Below, in pieces: positions 32,132 through 39,948 of a stretch of DNA of 64,000 nt. The stretch is taken from the IMG/VR virus record IMGVR_UViG_3300037452_000118, positions 1-64,000 of that record. One strand, 5' to 3'. Made by a program: the position numbers and the translations under genes. The DNA comes from a virus. Position 1 is the stretch's first letter; every line of letters starts with the position of its first letter. The notes below the pieces were generated by a model. The model searched no databases. It was given only the letters and a program-made list of their open reading frames with translations, and was not told where the DNA came from.

Positions 32132-33052
32132 ATGAGATTCCGCTTCACCCTCGTGGTCTGGGGCGATTGGCACATCGGCCAGTTCGTCAGGCACGGCCTG
32201 CCCAGCCTGCGGGCGCCGGGCAACCTCGACGCGATCGACCACGTCGTTTCCGCGAAGACACGGCCGTCGGACCTGGAGCGCGTGCGCGCGGCGCTGGACG
32301 GCGTCAACGCCGAGATCGAAGCGCTGCTTCCCGACGACATCGGCTCCGACCAGGCGACCTGCAACACGGCGGTCTTCACGCACAACGTCGACGACCGATC
32401 CGCCGCCGCCCAGGCCGGGGAGGCCTGGGGACTGCTGTCGCCCGACATGGTGTGGGGCGAGGGAACGTGGGCGCACCACCGCGCCGCGCTGGAGGGCGGC
32501 GCGAAGGCGGTCTTCCGCCCGCTGCTGCGCGTCGACTCCGAACGCGCCGGGACGATCCGCGATTTCCGCAGACGCAGCCTCGCCGCGACCGCCTTGGAGC
32601 ACGAGCACGCGATCGCGCGGACGGACTACCGCGCCGGCGGGGAGAGGTTCTCGCCGCACGCCGAGATGATTATCTGGGAGGCGCCGGGTTGGCTGATCAA
32701 CCGGACCATCACCGCTGAAGTCCAGACCTGCATCCCGGCTGCGGTGCCGTTCAACTCGCAGGGTTTGTCGGCGCTGCCGCTGGACGGCGAGATGTGCGTG
32801 GTCCGCGACAGCGACGAGGCGATCGCGGTGGCGATGTGCCCGCCGGACAAGGACTTCGGCTGGCTGCAGGGGACGCGACCGCTCGATGTCGACCTTGTCC
32901 GCGGTTTCCTGCGGTCCTACAACTCGCCGGCATCGAGGAACATCGCGCGCCAATCCTACCACCTGCATGCGGGCGACATCGTCGATGCCGAGATATGGAA
33001 AACGGTATTAGATCGTAGATCAGACGATTTCATCACGGAGGTCTTCGCGTGA
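32132..33052 (+). CDS. Hypothetical protein, possible glycosyltransferase-like (paralog 2)
   Basis: LVVWGDWHI..PSLRAPGNL. Confidence 0.45.
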   Translation: MRFRFTLVVWGDWHIGQFVRHGLPSLRAPGNLDAIDHVVSAKTRPSDLERVRAALDGVNAEIEALLPDDIGSDQATCNTAVFTHNVDDRSAAAQAGEAWGLLSPDMVWGEGTWAHHRAALEGGAKAVFRPLLRVDSERAGTIRDFRRRSLAATALEHEHAIARTDYRAGGERFSPHAEMIIWEAPGWLINRTITAEVQTCIPAAVPFNSQGLSALPLDGEMCVVRDSDEAIAVAMCPPDKDFGWLQGTRPLDVDLVRGFLRSYNSPASRNIARQSYHLHAGDIVDAEIWKTVLDRRSDDFITEVFA

Positions 33053-34167
33053 ACCTGCACCTCGCGTCAGACCTGCTCCTGGACAAGCATCTTCCGGAGC
33101 CGGAGCCTGTCCCCGACAAGGCGGCCTACCTCCGCGAGCGCGAGGCCTGCCTGGCGCTGTCGCCGGCGGCGCGCGAGAACTGGGAGCGCTACGAGCGCTC
33201 GACGAGGCGCGAGGCGGAGCTGGACTACCTGCCGGTCCGGCTCGACGTCGAGAACGTCAGCCGCTGCAATTTTCGTTGCACCATGTGCCAGGTCAGCGAC
33301 TGGCCGAAGGGCCAGCGCGCCGCCGACATGAGCCTCGACGACTTCAAGCGGCTGCTCGACGAGCAGGTCGGAGTCGTAGAGCTGAAAATCCAGGGCTTCG
33401 GCGAGCCGACGATGGGCGCCCACTATTTTGAAATGATCCAATACGCGAGGGCGCGGCGGATATGGGTGCGCACCATCACCAACGCCTCGCGGCTGCATTT
33501 GAGAAACACGTTTCAAAAGTTGGTCGATACCGACGTGAACGAAATCCAAATATCAATAGACGGCGCAACGAAGGAAGTCTTCGAGGGCATCCGGCGCGGC
33601 TCGGTGTTCGAGCAGGTCGTGAAGAATTGCGCGCTGATCAATGGCTATGCAAAAGCCCAGGGCAAGCTACGAACCAAAATGTGGACTGTCGTGCAACAAA
33701 CCAACGCGCACCAGCTCGACGACCTGGTCGACCTCGCCTACGACGCCGGCTTTGCGCATTTGGTTTTTTCATTTGAATTGATTGATTTTGGGCAGCCGAA
33801 ATGGAAGGAGACGAACGATGCCGCCTCGGTCGCGGATCGGATAAGCCTCGCGGAATGTTGGCGGCTGCACCATCGCGCCAAGGCGCTCGGCGTCCGATTG
33901 GGTTTTTGGTTTGCCAACGAACGCTATAGCTATGAGGCGGGCAACCCGGAAAAGCTATGCTCGTGGCCGTTTCAGTCTGCCTACATCTCGTCCGACATGA
34001 AAATCGTACCGTGCTGTATAATTGGAAACCCCGAAGTTAGCAATTTCGGCGATGCCCGCAAGCTCACTGAACTTTGGAATGGCCCCGCCATCAAGGCTTT
34101 CCGTGAGGGTCATTTGACGGGGTGTGTTCCGGATATTTGCAGGTCCTGTTATAAGGGGAATCGCTGA
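33049..34167 (+). CDS. Radical SAM enzyme with SPASM/twitch domain
   Basis: CNFRCTMC, GFGEP, ISIDG, CSWPF, VPCC, CRSC. Confidence 0.9.
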   Translation: MNLHLASDLLLDKHLPEPEPVPDKAAYLREREACLALSPAARENWERYERSTRREAELDYLPVRLDVENVSRCNFRCTMCQVSDWPKGQRAADMSLDDFKRLLDEQVGVVELKIQGFGEPTMGAHYFEMIQYARARRIWVRTITNASRLHLRNTFQKLVDTDVNEIQISIDGATKEVFEGIRRGSVFEQVVKNCALINGYAKAQGKLRTKMWTVVQQTNAHQLDDLVDLAYDAGFAHLVFSFELIDFGQPKWKETNDAASVADRISLAECWRLHHRAKALGVRLGFWFANERYSYEAGNPEKLCSWPFQSAYISSDMKIVPCCIIGNPEVSNFGDARKLTELWNGPAIKAFREGHLTGCVPDICRSCYKGNR

Positions 34168-34177
34168 ATCAACTCTA

Positions 34178-34207
34178 TTGACTTATAATTATCGCGTGGT
34201 GTAGGAA
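34178..34207 (+). promoter_or_regulatory. Candidate sigma70-type promoter for the RAMP cassette
   Basis: TTGACT at 34178 and TATAAT at 34184 in an AT-rich gap; the -10 assignment is ambiguous. Confidence 0.35.
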
Positions 34208-34215
34208 TGGTTCCT

Positions 34216-34368
34216 ATGAGAACCACGCACAAGCAGACGATTACCTTCACGAAACCAGAGATCGACTACCTGCGGATCGAGGCTAAACGCCTCGGCATAT
34301 CCGTGGCCGATCTTGTGCGGCGGATCATAGATCAGCACCAAGAGAGCCAAAGGAAAGCAGCAAAATGA
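34216..34368 (+). CDS. Ribbon-helix-helix (CopG-like) protein, 50 aa, not in the ORF track
   Basis: Manual translation MRTTHKQTITFTKPEIDYLRIEAKRLGISVADLVRRIIDQHQESQRKAAK; stop overlaps the next start (ATGA). Confidence 0.75.
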   Translation: MRTTHKQTITFTKPEIDYLRIEAKRLGISVADLVRRIIDQHQESQRKAAK

Positions 34369-35177
34369 ACAAACCAATCCAAGCCGAAGAGGCCGTTACC
34401 GTTGCCGAGATACAGATGACCGAGATGAGCTTCAACATCGTCGGGACATCCCCTCTCGTGATCCATGCTATGAGCGCGAAGAGCAAAGGCTCTCTGCTCT
34501 TTCCATCTCCGCGCAAGAATGCGACGGAGCGAGCGACGACGATGAAGCACGAACCATATGAGGAGTTTCTCGGCGCTTGCTATCGCTTCAGGGACGCCGA
34601 CAAATCGCCGACCCGGCTCTATATGCCGGCCGGAGCTTTTCATGCCGCGATGGCCAACTCCGCGATTGATATGGTCGGCGCTAAGAAAGCGCAGATCGGG
34701 CGCTTGACTACGGTACCCGGCGGCAAGATTCCAATCTTCGGTGTGCCGCAACTCTGGATGACCACCGTCAGGTCGAGCGACATGGCGCGAACACCGGACA
34801 TTCGCACGCTGCCGATCCTGCCGTCATGGTGCGCCACGATCACGGTGCAGTTCGTCGGTAGCCTGATCAAGCAGCAGTCGATCGCCAATCTGCTCGCTGC
34901 CGCTGGCGTCATCATTGGTATCGGTGACGGGCGCCCAGAGAAGGGCAAATTGTCGATGGGCCAGTTTCGCCTTTGCTCCGACGATGATCTAGAGTTTTTG
35001 CGGATCGTGAAGCAAGGCGTAACCGCGCAGGATAAGGCGCTTGCCGACCCGGCGACTTTCGACGAGGAAACTGCAGAACTTTGGGATTGGTTCACAAAAG
35101 AAAAAACCAAACGGGCGGCGGCTCCGGCGTCAATACCGAAGCGCCCCCCCCAAGGCAGAGCATGCAGCGCGAGCTAA
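34365..35177 (+). CDS. Stand-alone RAMP/Cas7-like RNA-binding protein (Vipr-like effector)
   Basis: N-terminal strand FNIVGTSPLVIHA, LYMPAGAFHAAM helix, C-terminal Gly-rich loop AGVIIGIGDGRPEKGKLSMGQF; directly followed by a 5-nt-periodic array. Confidence 0.72.
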   Translation: MNKPIQAEEAVTVAEIQMTEMSFNIVGTSPLVIHAMSAKSKGSLLFPSPRKNATERATTMKHEPYEEFLGACYRFRDADKSPTRLYMPAGAFHAAMANSAIDMVGAKKAQIGRLTTVPGGKIPIFGVPQLWMTTVRSSDMARTPDIRTLPILPSWCATITVQFVGSLIKQQSIANLLAAAGVIIGIGDGRPEKGKLSMGQFRLCSDDDLEFLRIVKQGVTAQDKALADPATFDEETAELWDWFTKEKTKRAAAPASIPKRPPQGRACSAS

Positions 35178-35185
35178 CGGCTCTT

Positions 35186-36059
35186 GAAATCCAGTCCAGT
35201 TGGGACACGATAGCCCAGTCATATCTCGATGTGACGAGATACGACTAGATGCGACCGGGACCAACAAGACTTGATCGGTCAAGATGCGAACAGTCTTGAT
35301 GCGACGGGACCGGATATGATCCGATGAGCCGTGACTGGACCAACGCGACTAGACCGGACGCGACGCGATACGATCTGGCTAGATACGATGAGACCAATGC
35401 GATGCGTTTGGCCGAGTTCGGACGCGACATGATCCGCCGTGATGCGCTTTGCCAAGACGCGACCAACATGATGAGCCGTGACCAGCCACGATCAGACCCG
35501 ACGGGCCGGAGCGCGACTTGCTCAGACCAACAAGACCTGCCGAGCCGCGATCGGCCGCGCTGCGATACGATTGGACAGGACGTGTTTTGTCCAACATGAC
35601 CCGACTAGCGATGACGAGCGGTGCCGGGCCATGACGAGACCAACAAGCCAAGTCTGGACGTGCTCGGACGGAATATGATCGGACTGGACAAGACCAACAC
35701 GACAAGACTGGAGACGACGTGCGGAGCCGGGACCGGCCGCGACAACGCTGGACCTGACCAACGGGCCTAGAAGGGACCGGATTAGCAATGCCGTGGCGAG
35801 ACGGGACCGACAAGTCACGATCAGCCAAGTCCCGAGGAGCCAACGCGAGATCGGACATGCCAAGACCAACGAGGTTTGCTCAGATGAGCGAAGCCGCGAC
35901 GTGATCGGCCAAGACGTGACCAACGTGACTGGCTATGCCGAGATTGGCCCGGACCAGATGCCTTGGGACGAGACTTGAAATGCCGAGACCAACGAGCCGC
36001 GATGTGACCTGACGCGCTATGCCGCGATCAGTAGCGATGAGATGGGATAAGTTGCCAAC
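35186..36059 (+). ncRNA. Array of ~14 putative guide units, each n x (NN-GHY) + CAAC (VIPR-like RNA array)
   Basis: Twelve clean units between 35266 and 35993 have lengths 79,54,69,64,64,49,54,64,49,59,54,69 (all 5n+4); by hand count 131/136 triplets begin with G and 78/136 are GAY; first and last units are degenerate. Confidence 0.85.
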
Positions 36060-36076
36060 CAAAGAGGAGGTTAAAA

Positions 36077-36571
36077 ATGTCGACCATGAAAATCCGCGCT
36101 GCGGCGATCAAAGCGATCGAGGATGAAGCCGGCAGAGTGACGGCGGAAGCGCTGGTATTGGCGGCGCGCGATCAAACCCATCCGCTGCACAAGGAGTTTC
36201 CCTGGGACGACAAAAAGGCGGCGCACCAGCATCGCCTCGATGTCGCCCGCCGTATAATCGCCAGCGTAAGGGTAACCATCACAACTACAACCAAGAAGGT
36301 AACCTGCGTTGGCTATGTCAGGGATCCTGAAGCCGGGCTACGACAGGGCTACGTCAGCACCGTCAAGCTGCGTACTGAGGCCGATGCTGCGCGGGAAGCC
36401 CTCGGCGCGGAGATCGCCAGGGTACAGAGCATTTTGGAAAGAGCGAAGGAACTCGCTGCAGGCCTCGAGCTTGACGAGGATTTTCAATTGTCTCTCGCCG
36501 GCGCCTTGGATTTTTCCAGCCGGATGCGAAAAGGACTCGGTTTTCCAGGAGATGGAAGAGCCTTGCAATAA
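36077..36571 (+). CDS. Accessory protein of the RAMP cassette (phage hypothetical protein)
   Basis: Strong GAGGAGG RBS; HPLHKEFPWDDKKAAHQHRLDVARRII motif; lies between the two arrays. Confidence 0.7.
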   Translation: MSTMKIRAAAIKAIEDEAGRVTAEALVLAARDQTHPLHKEFPWDDKKAAHQHRLDVARRIIASVRVTITTTTKKVTCVGYVRDPEAGLRQGYVSTVKLRTEADAAREALGAEIARVQSILERAKELAAGLELDEDFQLSLAGALDFSSRMRKGLGFPGDGRALQ

Positions 36572-36580
36572 AGCCTAAAC

Positions 36581-36709
36581 GTACTGTGCCGTGTCACGTT
36601 ACGACATGATCGGACACGATCTGACGAGACCAACGCGACCTGACTCGTCTTGTTGCGGTGAGGCATGACATGATGCGATTTGTCGCGATCCGACTAGCCG
36701 CAGCAAGAT
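36581..36709 (+). ncRNA. Second short NN-GHY array (2 units)
   Basis: Unit 36581-36634 (10 pentamers + CAAC), then 14-15 pentamers from 36635. Confidence 0.78.
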
Positions 36710-36725
36710 GATCAAAGGGAAGCTA

Positions 36726-37727
36726 ATGATACTCTCTGTCGGGGAATACGATGCCCTTGAGCAGGAAGCTCGCTGCGGTCTTTCTTTTTGCGAGCTCATG
36801 GCCTTCGCGCCGCGCACTTTCGACATGCTCGGCTTCCCGCATCGCGTCGAGGATGAGCGGGAGCTCGTCCGCTACGCCGATTGGAATCGGGACACCGGAA
36901 ATCAAGAATACTTTCGGCCCGGCCATTTCTTCGGCGGCCCGGCCGTGCAGACCGACTTCACCGCCGATGAGGTCGAGATGATGAATCGCGTCCGCGACCA
37001 GGCCGTCGCGGCGACCACCAAGCTCGGCCGGCCGGTGCGGCCGCTGTGCAGTCCCTTCGCGCAGCTCGGCCTGTTTCGCATCTTGGCCGCCATCGGATTG
37101 CCTGGGCTCCGCGTCTTCGAGGTCGGCCCCGGTACCGCCTATCTCGGCGCCATGCTCATCAACGAAGGCGCGAGCTATTATTCTTTCACCGACAACGCCC
37201 AGGCGCTTTTCCTTTGGCAATGTCGCTTGATGGCCGAGGTCGGGTATCAACCGACGTCGCGCGCTGGGCTTCCGTGGTGGGACTTCGCCCGCGGCGTCAA
37301 CCTTCTTCCGGTCGATGTCGTGGTCTCCAACACCAACCTCGGCGAGATGACCGGCGACGCGCTCAAGATCACGGCGCACCGCGCGCGGCAGATGCTGGAG
37401 AGATCGCCGCTTGGTCTCTTCCTGTTCGTCAACGTCGGGGCGCCGATGTACAATTCGGAGGAGGGCGTCGACCGCGAGCTGCGCCGTGCCGGCTTCAGCC
37501 TCGTCGTCAACCGCTTTTTCCGCGCCTACCGGGCGCCCAACTCCGAGCCGCTCCCGGAGGCGGCGCTGGCCTTGGAGTTCGGCATGCCGCTCTATAATCC
37601 AAGCGGCAGGCCTGGCACGGTGTCCGGTGGCGAGGCCGTGTACATCCCCGACGACCAGCGCCCGCTCGACCTCGACGTTACGGAGCTGCTGGAGGGGTGG
37701 CGCCCGCCGGTGAGGAGCAAGCCATGA
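36726..37727 (+). CDS. SAM-dependent methyltransferase, putative sugar O-methyltransferase
   Basis: VFEVGPGTAYLG, DVVVSNTNLGEM; sugar-cluster context. Confidence 0.65.
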   Translation: MILSVGEYDALEQEARCGLSFCELMAFAPRTFDMLGFPHRVEDERELVRYADWNRDTGNQEYFRPGHFFGGPAVQTDFTADEVEMMNRVRDQAVAATTKLGRPVRPLCSPFAQLGLFRILAAIGLPGLRVFEVGPGTAYLGAMLINEGASYYSFTDNAQALFLWQCRLMAEVGYQPTSRAGLPWWDFARGVNLLPVDVVVSNTNLGEMTGDALKITAHRARQMLERSPLGLFLFVNVGAPMYNSEEGVDRELRRAGFSLVVNRFFRAYRAPNSEPLPEAALALEFGMPLYNPSGRPGTVSGGEAVYIPDDQRPLDLDVTELLEGWRPPVRSKP

Positions 37728-38647
37728 AGATCGAGGTCGTCGTCGCGGCGTGGGGACACTGGGCGCAGCGCTGGCGCAACCTCAACTGCGCCGTCGTGCG
37801 GGCCGAGGCCGACGACGTCGGCGGCACCTTGGTCGTCTACGCCGACGACGACGGCCGCGAGCGGCTGGCGGGGGAATGGATCGACGAGTTCAGGCCGCTG
37901 CCGGAGCCGGTGAGCTGGTTCGACCAGGCCGACGGCGCGCACGCCGACGCGATCGACCGGGCCCTGGCCGGCGGCTACGCCGTGGCGCCGCTGTGCGCGT
38001 CGCTCCGCCTCGGCAGGGGGACGCTCGCCGCCGCCAAGCGCCGGCTCGACGCCGGCTACCGGGCCTGCATGGCGCTCTGCGTCCCGGCCGGGGTGCCCGA
38101 CAAGGTCGAGACCGCCGCGGCGATGTCGGCCAAGCTCAAGCACGCCGGGTTCGGCTGGTGGGAGGGCAGGACGAGGACGACCCACCCCGGCCACTATGCC
38201 TGGCGCTCGGCCAACGGCGCCGTCCTGGTGCGGCCGATCTACCACCACCCCGTCCTCATCAGGCCGACGCGCGCCCACGCTCCGCGCCGCGCCGCCGACC
38301 ACTTCATGACCGAGGGCTACCTCGACGACGTCTCGCAGGTCGCGCAGCTCGACCCCCTCGACGGCTGCATCAGCGGCCTGCCGGCCCACGACGGCACCGG
38401 CCCTCCGCCGGGCCCGGCCAGGCCCCCGGAGAACCCGGCGCTGGCGGAGCCCGCCGGCATCGTGGGCTGGATGCTGTCCGGGGTCGGCGTCGCCGGCGGC
38501 GTCAACGTGATGCCCTGGAACCTGCACTACATGGCCCACCGCTTCTGGTGTGGCGAGCCCGGCGCCGACAGGCTAGAAGTTGAGATGGAATCGGACCGCG
38601 CCGTCGCCGAGATCAGGCGGATTTATTTTGAAAGGGTAGGAAAGTGA
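37724..38647 (+). CDS. Hypothetical protein, possible glycosyltransferase-like (paralog 3)
   Basis: VVVAAWGHWA..LVVYADD. Confidence 0.4.
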   Translation: MKIEVVVAAWGHWAQRWRNLNCAVVRAEADDVGGTLVVYADDDGRERLAGEWIDEFRPLPEPVSWFDQADGAHADAIDRALAGGYAVAPLCASLRLGRGTLAAAKRRLDAGYRACMALCVPAGVPDKVETAAAMSAKLKHAGFGWWEGRTRTTHPGHYAWRSANGAVLVRPIYHHPVLIRPTRAHAPRRAADHFMTEGYLDDVSQVAQLDPLDGCISGLPAHDGTGPPPGPARPPENPALAEPAGIVGWMLSGVGVAGGVNVMPWNLHYMAHRFWCGEPGADRLEVEMESDRAVAEIRRIYFERVGK

Positions 38648-38823
38648 ACTTAGCGGAGCGGAGGCGGGGAAAGCAGACCCGCACGGACTGGACACAGGTA
38701 CGCAGGGAATTAGGGGCGCAAGCTCCGTGAATTGCGACGCACCTCAGCGGGTTCGATTCCCGACGGTCATCAACGAAATAGCGATGAAGCTGGAGTAGCG
38801 CCCAGCCCGCTCCGCTAAGTTCA
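38645..38823 (+). ncRNA. Putative multi-branched structured RNA with tRNA-like arms
   Basis: Perfect 17-bp terminal inverted repeat (38645-38661 / 38807-38823) enclosing several hairpins, including CGGG-TTCGATT-CCCG. Confidence 0.5.
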
Positions 38824-39948
38824 TACGAGCTAAAGCCGCAAAGGAGGATCAAATGCCCAAGTGTCGTTTCTGCGGTGCGGACATGATCTTCCGAGATTTT
38901 GGTCCGTACTACCCGCTCTACGATGTTCCCGGCGCGAGCGTCGGCTATTGGGAATGTCTCAATTTCAACGATGGTCGCCACGGCGATCCGCGACAGAGAC
39001 AGGACCGTTATCAGACGAACGACAAAACCCTCGTGCCAAAGGAGAAATATCATGCCGCTTAAAGACCCGCGCGAATCCCTCGTTGAACGCCGCGCGCTAC
39101 TAAAATTTTTCGGGATTGCCGTCCCCGCCGCGCTTCTACCGACCGTTGCCGAAGAAAGCGAGCGGCCTTCTGGCCCGCAATTCTTTATGAGGCCGGACGA
39201 AATCTTCACATTGTTCGTGAGCGAAATGGTAGCCGCGCTGCCCCAGCAATATGCCGATGCGGCGCGTGATCGTAGTTCGGTATTGCGAACGATGATCGAG
39301 GCACACGGCGTCGCGATGGCAACCGTTTTAGCAACGTTCCAGATGCCGCCGCAGGATATTGCCATCGGGAAAACGTTGACGGACTTCGGAATAATGTGGG
39401 ATGTCGTCCGCTTAGATGGCGAATCCGACAATGATTTGCGGACTCGGCTGGCAGATCGAATGAAAGGCACCGCGAGACGATCATGAAAATGATGAAAACT
39501 ATTTCGGTCCCGGCGACAACGCGCGAAGCGCTTGATTACATCAAATGCGAGCTTTGCCCTACGCAAACACGCTCCGATGGCTATTGGCCTACGAACATAG
39601 GCTACAGAGTTGATGACGTTGAGGTTGAGTACGTCACGGGGGACAGCTACCCGGAAGGTGGCTCTACAAAAACCGTCATTCTCGACATCTGCCCCAAATG
39701 CTTCGAAGAAAAGTTGGTCCCGTGGTTTAGGTCTCAAGGTGGTGTACCTCGTGTGGAAGAAAGGGACTGACGATATGCCGGACGTTCCCAAAGTCCTCGA
39801 CACCATTGCCGACCGGGTCCTCCGATACCGGCCCAAGCCGAAGTCAAAGCCCGCTCGCCGCCGTAAGCGCCGGGCTGCCAAGCTGGCGTCAAAATGAGCG
39901 GAAGAATCAGAAGCGGGTTGATCTATATGCAGCATTGGAGATGATATA

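What the first reader, a model, noticed from the sequence alone, without database searches (positions are those of the whole stretch)
35266..35344. First clean guide decodes to the 3' end of the gene just upstream of the cassette
Seen: unit dinucleotides are AA TT CG AA GC CA TT GC GG CG AT CC GA GT TG. Codon positions 1-2 of the radical SAM/SPASM gene at 34096-34140 are GC TT CG GA GG CA TT AC GG TG GT CC GA AT TG. That is 22/30 nt identical with 8 full dinucleotides, in codon register with the wobble base skipped. As peptides: guide [KN]-F-R-[KN]-A-H-L-A-G-R-I-P-D-V-C versus gene A-F-R-E-G-H-L-T-G-C-V-P-D-I-C. Inference: the guide targets the homologous allele in a related phage, the resident copy is diverged (self-immune), and skipping the wobble base blocks synonymous escape.
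Basis: partly seen in the sequence, partly recalled or inferred. Interest (0 to 1): 0.92.

Follow-up and report, generated by a model that had tools for sequence, protein, structure and literature searches.

The report
VIPR guide aimed at neighbouring gene's relatives
This stretch is one guide RNA of a phage VIPR system, a CRISPR-like system first described in 2026, and it reads codon positions 1-2 of a motif in the neighbouring radical SAM gene, fitting relatives' versions of that gene better than the phage's own.

Summary
Unit 35266-35344 is 15 pentamers (NN + GAY) plus a CAAC junction. Its 15 dinucleotides match codon positions 1-2 at 34096-34140 in 22 of 30 bases, the best hit in the 128.8-kb genome (next best 19; shuffle p about 0.016; p 3e-4 within 1.5 kb of the cassette).

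The kind is already published. This is a VIPR locus (bioRxiv 10.64898/2026.04.26.720920, .720927, 2026.10.15.759431, 2026.10.21.760802). Its parts are a Vipr RAMP protein (34365-35177), an accessory gene (36077-36571) and two staggered vrRNA arrays.

- The scaffold is GAY/GHY, not GGY. GAC/NN arrays are also already reported.
- The resident match (73%) lies below the published 80% target threshold.
- NN strings derived from 119 homologues' protein sequences beat the resident in 27 (minimum) to 81 (maximum) cases. Between 6 and 60 reach 80%.
- The last guide of array 2 does the same with the downstream gene (20/26).

So the two outer guides aim at relatives' alleles of the two flanking genes. 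Specific recoding of the resident copy is not shown, and no target phage DNA was found.

Earlier notes of this scan on the same genome had flagged the module; none concerned other DNA.

The parts
33049..34167 (+). radical SAM/SPASM gene (372 aa), upstream neighbour of the cassette
   Evidence: Pfam Radical_SAM E 1.1e-15 and SPASM E 1e-8. There are 1038 homologues at E<=0.001.
34096..34140 (+). sub-threshold match to guide 35266: 22/30 NN bases, in codon frame, sense strand, 27 nt before the stop codon
34207..34368 (+). 53-aa ribbon-helix-helix-like ORF overlapping the vipr start; whether it belongs to the module is uncertain
   Evidence: Only weak hits below the curated cut-offs: Pfam NikA-like E 0.0034 and NCBIfam BrnA antitoxin E 0.0012.
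34365..35177 (+). vipr: 270-aa RAMP (Cas7-like) protein that should coat the vrRNA, one protomer per pentamer
   Evidence: AF2 model pLDDT 83, pTM 0.78. The listed Foldseek rows at E<=0.001 (31 in all) are type III/VII Cas7-family chains or their complexes, best E 4.9e-5. hhalign against SUSP1 Vipr gives prob 88.7%, E 2.6e-6 over the G-loop. PHROG 4652 E 3.9e-16.
35226..36059 (+). vrRNA array 1: 15 segments of 4-15 pentamers (NN + G-H-Y), most joined by a 4-nt CAAC/CAAT/CGAC junction that overlaps the preceding triplet by one base (staggered array)
35266..35344 (+). the finding: one vrRNA guide of 15 pentamers plus CAAC
36077..36571 (+). vap-type accessory gene (164 aa), function unknown
   Evidence: tblastn found a homologue in 86 of the 116 loci searched (L001-L116); the 85 that my script listed lie on the strand of vipr. 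PHROG 15946 E 4.8e-16. Not similar to SUSP1 vap1. Fold uninformative.
36591..36699 (+). vrRNA array 2: two segments of 8 and 13 pentamers
36708..37727 (+). 339-aa methyltransferase-like gene, downstream neighbour of the cassette
   Evidence: Only a weak NCBIfam methyltransferase hit, E 3e-4, below cut-off. There are 55 homologues.
36777..36815 (+). sub-threshold match to the last guide (36635-36699): 20/26 NN bases, in codon frame, sense strand, 69 nt after the start codon

Best explanation
The stretch is one guide (vrRNA) of a phage-borne VIPR system.

Shown here:
- A RAMP-fold protein with the Vipr G-loop lies next to two co-oriented arrays of pentamers, each a fixed triplet plus a variable NN.
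- The NN strings relate to coding DNA only when one base is skipped between dinucleotides.

Taken from the VIPR papers, not tested here:
- Vipr protomers polymerise on the RNA, one per pentamer, and bury the triplet.
- The protomers present the NN bases, which pair with double-stranded DNA while every third target base is flipped out.
- The resulting R-loop triplex blocks transcription.

Inferred:
- Guide 35266 is directed at a conserved C-terminal SPASM motif of the radical SAM gene family, as carried by related phages.
- The last guide of array 2 is likewise directed at a conserved N-terminal motif of the downstream gene's family.
- The resident alleles differ from the guides at 8 of 30 and 6 of 26 NN bases, which puts them below the published 80% cut-off and so spares them.
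- The wobble skip makes synonymous escape useless.
- During co-infection the phage would thus silence these two genes in relatives that carry the common alleles.
For: VIPR membership:
- Period 5 occurs only at 35126-36126 and 36501-36801 in the window.
- Of 172 triplets, 168 start with G and 161 end in a pyrimidine.
- The Vipr fold is RAMP-like, and the profile matches SUSP1 Vipr.
- 106 of 113 loci that encode a homologue carry a period-5 array beside it, and the fixed triplet reads on the gene's strand: GGC in 120 of 144 array regions, GCC in 1.

Skip rule:
- For 688 guides from 113 loci scanned against their own locus, hits at p<=0.01 numbered 11 with gap 1, against 1, 4 and 0 with gaps 0, 2 and 3.
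- A repeat with 200 shuffles gave 12 for real guides, against 1, 3 and 3 for reversed or swapped guides.

This guide:
- 22/30, the best hit in the genome, p 0.016; local p 3e-4.
- In 5 of 5 distant viral homologue loci (47-50% protein identity), the guide's best hit is at the homologous site: 22, 23, 19, 21 and 24 of 30, with next-best hits of 16-17.
- At the amino-acid level, 107 of 120 family members fit the guide better than the resident's 8/15.
- In 4 of the 7 units where the resident mismatches, the guide encodes the family's commonest residue (A 97/120, R 48/120, I 84/120, V 76/120). By my hand calculation the chance of this is about 5e-4.
- NN strings derived from the proteins: 27 of 119 homologues exceed the resident even at their minimum and 81 at their maximum. 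Six (minimum) to 60 (maximum) reach 80%.

Second guide:
- 20/26, p 0.012 genome-wide and 3e-4 locally.
- Its 11 core units encode exactly the motif found in 7 of 52 homologues. The resident differs at 2 residues.
Against: - No DNA of a close relative could be read, so scores for close homologues are derived from protein sequence and are ambiguous at Leu, Arg and Ser.
- An exact 30-base gapped pattern found nothing in viral contigs.
- The resident target windows are not clear outliers for private substitutions. For the radical SAM gene, 123 of 358 windows (or 76 of 358) are at least as deviant, and only the nearest-30 set gives 6 of 358. For the downstream gene there is no excess.
- 15 of 17 guides have no notable hit in the genome.
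- The homologue sites are not independent of the resident site, because they are homologous.
- Expression and processing of the RNA, and silencing, are untested for this clade.
- In SUSP1 a GGY>GAY change abolishes function (figure S12 legend), so transfer of the mechanism to this clade rests on the co-varying protein change alone.
Confidence: 0.78

Rival explanations
1. The 22/30 match is chance: one of many guides happens to resemble one of many sites.
For: The genome-wide shuffle p is only 0.015-0.016 for one guide among 17. The match is below the published 80% threshold.
Against: - Local p is 3e-4 for this guide, and also for the last guide on the opposite flank.
- Both hits are in codon frame and sense.
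- The guide carries the family consensus at 4 of the 7 units where the resident differs.
- Gaps of 0, 2 and 3 give nothing.
Confidence: 0.04
2. Self-regulation: partial pairing (73-77%) of the outer guides with the phage's own flanking genes tunes or insulates transcription around the cassette, and no rival phage is involved.
For: - Both hits lie at the gene ends facing the cassette.
- In other loci, 7 of 12 significant own-locus hits lie within 600 nt of the cassette or inside it, against 31% of the 619 background best hits (Mann-Whitney p 0.05).
- The mismatch tolerance of this clade is unknown.
Against: - The published searches found no self-target at 80% or more, and reported self-match scores lower than matches to rivals (section 8).
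- The guides fit other alleles better than the resident ones, which a self-regulator would not need.
Confidence: 0.1
3. Relic: the guides once matched an ancestral or rival allele, and both the guides and the resident gene have since drifted, so there is no present target.
For: - No perfect or near-perfect target DNA was found.
- The array is more degenerate than in relatives such as L001, with many GCC, GTC and GCT triplets.
- The terminal units of both guides mismatch the consensus.
Against: - The predicted maximum NN match reaches 87-90% for several homologues of 67-80% protein identity.
- The vipr and vap ORFs are intact, and vipr shares 95% identity with its closest homologue P0001.
Confidence: 0.08

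Closest known systems
VIPR type II of Escherichia phage SUSP1 (10.64898/2026.04.26.720920; structures in 10.64898/2026.04.26.720927)
   Same: - A RAMP protein with a shared G-loop motif: our D188 and R190 align with SUSP1 D177 and R179.
- Pentamer arrays sit on both sides of a two-gene operon, on the same strand.
- NN strings read with a 1-base skip on codon positions 1-2.
- Guide lengths of 9-15 units for most segments.
   Different: - The protein has 270 aa against 195.
- The scaffold is GAY/GHY, not GGY.
- There is no pseudoknot tail of about 40 nt. Guides abut through a 4-nt junction.
- The accessory protein is unrelated to vap1 (hhalign prob 0.05%).
- The two SUSP1 residues that hold G2 (R138, W178) correspond to L149 and G189 here.
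Non-canonical VIPR arrays (GAC/NN, CAC/NN and others) in 10.64898/2026.10.21.760802, and the staggered arrays of figure S18 of 10.64898/2026.04.26.720920
   Same: A GAC/NN repeat next to a Vipr-like fold. Neighbouring vrRNAs overlap by one base (passages and legends read).
   Different: I could not see the figures or supplements, so I cannot say whether this exact clade is among those shown. Those reports, in the passages I read, give no targets for such arrays.
Class 1 CRISPR Cas7 backbone (Csm3/Cmr4)
   Same: The fold is shared: the listed top Foldseek hits are Cas7-family chains or their complexes, E 4.9e-5 and weaker, TM 0.33-0.42. Guide binding is periodic, with flipped bases.
   Different: - The period is 5 nt with 3 buried bases, not 6 with 1.
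- Tandem Repeats Finder reported no repeats with a period of CRISPR length in 34900-36900.
- The gene neighbours I annotated include no cas gene.
Solo vrRNAs of SUSP1-like phages that target relatives' vipr genes with lower self-match (10.64898/2026.10.15.759431, section 8)
   Same: Guides score lower on the phage's own copy than on rivals' copies. The targets are coding sequences read in codon register.
   Different: Here the targets are the two genes that flank the cassette, not vipr or vrRNAs. Searches of that paper for 'allele' and 'flanking gene' gave 0 hits.

Membership tests
VIPR | Vipr protein: minimal RAMP fold with a glycine-rich loop | tested here: met
   AF2 model pLDDT 83. The listed Foldseek rows at E<=0.001 (31 in all) are Cas7-family chains or their complexes. 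The G-loop motif is invariant in 31 aligned homologues.
VIPR | Sequence relation to the founding Vipr (phage SUSP1) | tested here: met
   hhalign of A1 against the 195-aa SUSP1 protein: prob 88.7%, E 2.6e-6, but over only 51 columns (G-loop and preceding strands). tblastn against the phage collection found nothing.
VIPR | Tandem pentamers of a fixed triplet plus variable NN, in runs of about 9-16, beside vipr and on its strand | tested here: met
   17 segments, 172 units, 11 of them with 9-15 units. 106 of 113 homologue loci carry such arrays.
VIPR | Canonical GGY triplet | tested here: not met
   GAC 65, GAT 39, GCC 28, GGC 3 and GGT 2 of 172. A related consensus is allowed by the papers, and GAC/NN is reported.
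VIPR | Target recognition by the 1 nt skip rule | tested here: met
   Statistical support only.
VIPR | Adjacent vap accessory gene | tested here: met
   tblastn found a homologue of the 164-aa gene in 86 of the 116 loci searched. Which of vap1-6 it is cannot be told; it is not vap1.
VIPR | vrRNAs expressed, processed and bound by Vipr | not testable with these tools
   Needs small-RNA sequencing and pull-down.
VIPR type II (SUSP1 clade) | Conserved 3' tail with pseudoknot after each repeat tract | tested here: not met
   Most segments abut through a 4-nt junction only. SUSP1 tails are visible.
VIPR natural target (published criterion) | At least 80% NN match | tested here: not met
   Resident radical SAM site 22/30 = 73%; resident downstream site 20/26 = 77%. 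Homologues are predicted to reach 80% in 6 (minimum) to 60 (maximum) of 119 cases. One of 5 DNA loci reaches 24/30.
CRISPR-Cas type III | Repeat-spacer array and Cas10/Cas5/Cas6 partners | tested here: not met
   Tandem Repeats Finder reported only 10-15-nt periods in 34900-36900. The neighbours are radical SAM, RHH-like, vap and methyltransferase-like genes.

The most novel reading that the evidence does not exclude
The cassette acts as a linked poison-antidote element. Its outermost guides silence the common alleles of the two genes that flank it, while the resident flanks are resistant. In mixed infections, only genomes or recombinants that carry the cassette together with its own flanks would then express this modification pathway. 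That would drive the cassette and its flanks through the phage population, an RNA-guided analogue of intronless homing without cleavage.
Probability: 0.2. Interest if true: 0.65.

Novelty: new member of a known kind. Interest (0 to 1): 0.35.

Why it matters
The system and its gapped code were published in 2026, so the main value is confirmation: a reader without tools recovered the 1 nt skip rule from raw sequence.

Three points may interest VIPR workers.
- This soil phage belongs to a clade with a GAY/GHY scaffold. In that clade the thumb arginine that holds G2 in SUSP1 is leucine: L in 8 of 8 GAC-clade loci and in L005, against R in 64 of 64 GGC-clade loci. That is a natural specificity switch and could give orthogonal scaffolds.
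- The two outer guides point at relatives' alleles of the two genes that flank the cassette. This suggests that cassette and flanks travel as a unit.
- In 113 related loci there is a small but real excess of sub-threshold matches to the guides' own locus.

Tried and rejected
Ideas dropped:
- A TRAP-like RNA wrapped on a protein ring, a DNA-binding iteron or centromere array, a tRNA sponge, and a translated pentapeptide repeat. I held these before the fold result and the papers. They were dropped because the protein is a RAMP, the array keeps one strand relative to the gene, and the system is described.

Searches that gave nothing:
- Rfam, 0 matches.
- blastn and tblastn of the array, vipr and vap against the phage collection, 0.
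- Single-protein scans of viral contigs for vipr and for the radical SAM gene, 0.
- The metagenome scan gave only 3 short loci.
- The phage collection holds only distant radical SAM hits.
- Exact gapped pattern of the guide in viral contigs, 0.
- Relatives of the downstream gene in viral contigs are only 29-34% identical. The 5 radical SAM loci carry no relative of the downstream gene.
- No guide of this window recurs in arrays of other loci.
- Promoter scan, 0 hits; terminator-like sites no more frequent than in shuffles.
- NCBIfam has nothing for vipr or vap.
- Weaker period-5 signals at 38625, 71625 and 81225 are noise. There is no tRNA at 38000-39500.

Uninformative results:
- vap fold: Foldseek best E 0.47. 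VIA-align wide found only generic helical hairpins, Z 8.0 or lower.
- Test for extra divergence of the resident targets: inconclusive.

Sequencing runs:
- No RNA holder listed.
- Laid contigs of 4 DNA runs showed no variant at either target site. No run-X3 or run-X4 contig covers 34096-34140. One weak X4 joint 35211>36617 (depth 2, side 23) is not trusted.

Limits:
- Supplements and figures of the four preprints could not be seen. They may show this clade, its type and its vap.

Full report
**What is there.** Window 35226-36059 and 36591-36699 are non-coding stretches with a strict 5-nt period.
- GA recurs at lag 5 in 51 places, against 3-4 at lags 4 and 6.
- No other part of the window shows this period.
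- Weaker signals elsewhere in the 128.8-kb genome are noise.
- The stretches parse into 17 segments and 172 units of NN plus a triplet. The triplets are GAC 65, GAT 39, GCC 28, GTC 8, GCT 7, GTT 5 and rarer forms. G is first in 168 of 172 and a pyrimidine is last in 161.
- Most segments are joined by a 4-nt unit (CAAC, once CAAT, once CGAC) that shifts the phase by one base. GACCAAC occurs 11 times here, all on the + strand. The whole window has 23 copies where 6.0 are expected.
- The finding's stretch, 35266-35344, is the second segment: 15 units plus CAAC.

**The observation.**
- This is the best gapped hit of the guide on both strands of the window (next 18) and of the genome (next 19).
- Shuffling the order of the dinucleotides reaches 22 with p 0.015-0.016.
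- Within 1.5 kb on either side of the cassette, p is 3e-4 from 20,000 shuffles.
- Gaps of 0, 2 or 3 bases give no guide below p 0.05 (0 of 14 each). A gap of 1 gives 3 of 14.

**The genes.**
- The ORF 34365-35177 (270 aa) has no Pfam or NCBIfam family. It has more than 600 homologues, all unnamed.
- An AlphaFold model built from 31 sequences (pLDDT 83, pTM 0.78) matches only Cas7-family RAMPs of type III and VII CRISPR complexes among the listed rows. The best is 6xn3_F at E 4.9e-5, with TM 0.33-0.42.
- Of 113 loci that encode a homologue (80 viral contigs, 33 genome contigs), 106 carry a period-5 array beside the gene.
- The fixed triplet reads GGC in 120 of 144 array regions and GCC in 1, so the arrays keep the gene's strand.
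- tblastn found a homologue of the 164-aa ORF 36077-36571 in 86 of the 116 loci searched (L001-L116).

**It is a known system.** A literature search led to four 2026 preprints on VIPR.
- 10.64898/2026.04.26.720920 (I read Results, Discussion and Methods 20 and 27, plus legend passages found by search).
  - It describes Vipr, an ancestral RAMP, together with a vap gene and vrRNAs of 9-16 YNNGG repeats.
  - It shows by pangenome search, binding assay and GFP repression that only a target with one skipped base per dinucleotide is recognised.
  - It notes that the skipped base falls on the wobble position, and it calls natural targets at 80% NN match or more.
  - It found no self-target at that level, and it lists staggered arrays whose vrRNAs overlap by 1 nt.
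- 10.64898/2026.04.26.720927 (abstract and sections 5-6) gives the structures.
  - One protomer binds per repeat.
  - G1 is held by H17 and D177, G2 by R138 and W178, and Y3 lies in a pocket with R179.
  - The target's third base is flipped out, and an R-loop triplex forms.
- 10.64898/2026.10.15.759431 (abstract and sections 8, 17, 26) shows codon-phased targeting of a satellite gene. It also reports guides whose self-match is lower than their match to rivals.
- 10.64898/2026.10.21.760802 (passages) reports 21 clusters of non-canonical arrays, GAC/NN among them, beside Vipr-like folds.

**Direct link to SUSP1.**
- I fetched phage phiSUSP1 and saw its GGT/NN arrays on both sides of a 195-aa and a 146-aa gene.
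- The profile of our family aligns with the 195-aa protein over 51 columns around the G-loop (prob 88.7%, E 2.6e-6).
- In that alignment our D188 and R190 correspond to the G1 and Y3 contacts D177 and R179. The two G2 contacts, R138 and W178, correspond to L149 and G189.
- Among our loci, the 8 with GAC arrays and L005 (GCC/GTC arrays) have L at 149. All 64 loci with clear GGC arrays have R.
- This fits the triplets seen here: first G and last pyrimidine kept, middle base free.
- It is correlation within one clade, not proof.
- Our accessory protein is unrelated to SUSP1 vap1, and its fold tells nothing.

**Is the rule visible in this family?** I scanned 688 guides of 8 or more units from the 113 loci against their own locus with the arrays masked.
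- With 100 shuffles each, hits at p<=0.01 numbered 11 for gap 1, against 1, 4 and 0 for gaps 0, 2 and 3.
- With 200 shuffles, real guides gave 12. Reversed, base-swapped and reversed-swapped guides gave 1, 3 and 3.
- Most top hits lie in the frame of a long ORF, sense strand.
- Seven of the 12 lie within 600 nt of the cassette or inside it, against 31% of the 619 background best hits (p 0.05; two of the 12 are one locus sampled twice).

**What does the guide aim at?** Of 120 family members of the radical SAM protein, the resident included, the resident fits the guide-encoded peptide at 8 of 15 positions and 107 fit better, up to 12.
- In 4 of the 7 units where the resident mismatches, the guide encodes the family's commonest residue.
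- Codon positions 1-2 follow from the amino acid except for Leu, Arg and Ser, so I derived NN ranges from the proteins. The resident scores 22. Of 119 homologues, 27 exceed it even at their minimum and 81 at their maximum. Six to 60 reach 24 of 30.
- At the DNA level I had only five distant viral loci (47-50% identity). In all five the guide's best hit is the homologous site, at 22, 23, 19, 21 and 24 of 30.
- The last guide of array 2 (36635-36699) matches 36777-36815 of the downstream gene at 20 of 26 (p 0.012 genome-wide, 3e-4 locally). Its 11 core units encode a motif carried unchanged by 7 of 52 homologues, and the resident differs at two residues.
- The other 15 guides have no notable hit in this genome and are not shared with relatives.

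**What is not shown.**
- The resident target windows are not clear outliers for private substitutions. I therefore cannot say whether the gene moved away from the guide or the guide was selected on another allele.
- I found no sequenced target phage.
- The laid metagenome contigs show no variant at the sites.
- Expression, processing and silencing are untested for this clade.

**Verdict.** The kind, however, is the VIPR system, published some months before this scan, including the skip rule, the wobble logic, staggered arrays and GAC/NN scaffolds. New here, at the level of a lead, are the R-to-L thumb change that goes with the loss of the middle G, and the aiming of the two outer guides at relatives' alleles of the two flanking genes.

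Noticed in passing
window 36635-36699 and 36777-36815: The last guide of array 2 matches the 5' part of the downstream 339-aa gene at 20/26, in frame. Its 11 core units encode the family consensus motif exactly, and the resident differs at two residues.
   Followed up: yes
window 34809-34811 (residue L149 of the 270-aa protein); loci L001-L005, L114-L116: The residue aligned with SUSP1 R138 (the G2 contact) is Leu in every locus with GAC or GCC/GTC arrays and Arg in 64 of 64 loci with GGC arrays.
   Followed up: partly
Its best hit in this genome is only 16/24, so any target lies elsewhere.
   Followed up: partly
L038 5631, L086 925, L108 5538: In three related loci, a guide's best own-locus hit (16/20, 18/26, 13/16) falls inside the locus's own vipr gene. 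This recalls the published targeting of rivals' vipr genes.
   Followed up: no
L005 2540-5026; L066 and L069 (about 2.6 kb each): Some relatives carry very long arrays of 2-2.6 kb. L005 uses GCC/GTC triplets with CAAC/TAAC junctions.
   Followed up: no
window 35211 joined to 36617 in run X4: One low-depth contig joins the start of array 1 to array 2, skipping 1405 bases with 16 other letters between. It may be a deletion variant without vap, or an artefact of the repeats.
   Followed up: no
window 34207-34368: A 53-aa ribbon-helix-helix-like ORF overlaps the vipr start by 4 bases. I did not check whether relatives have it.
   Followed up: no
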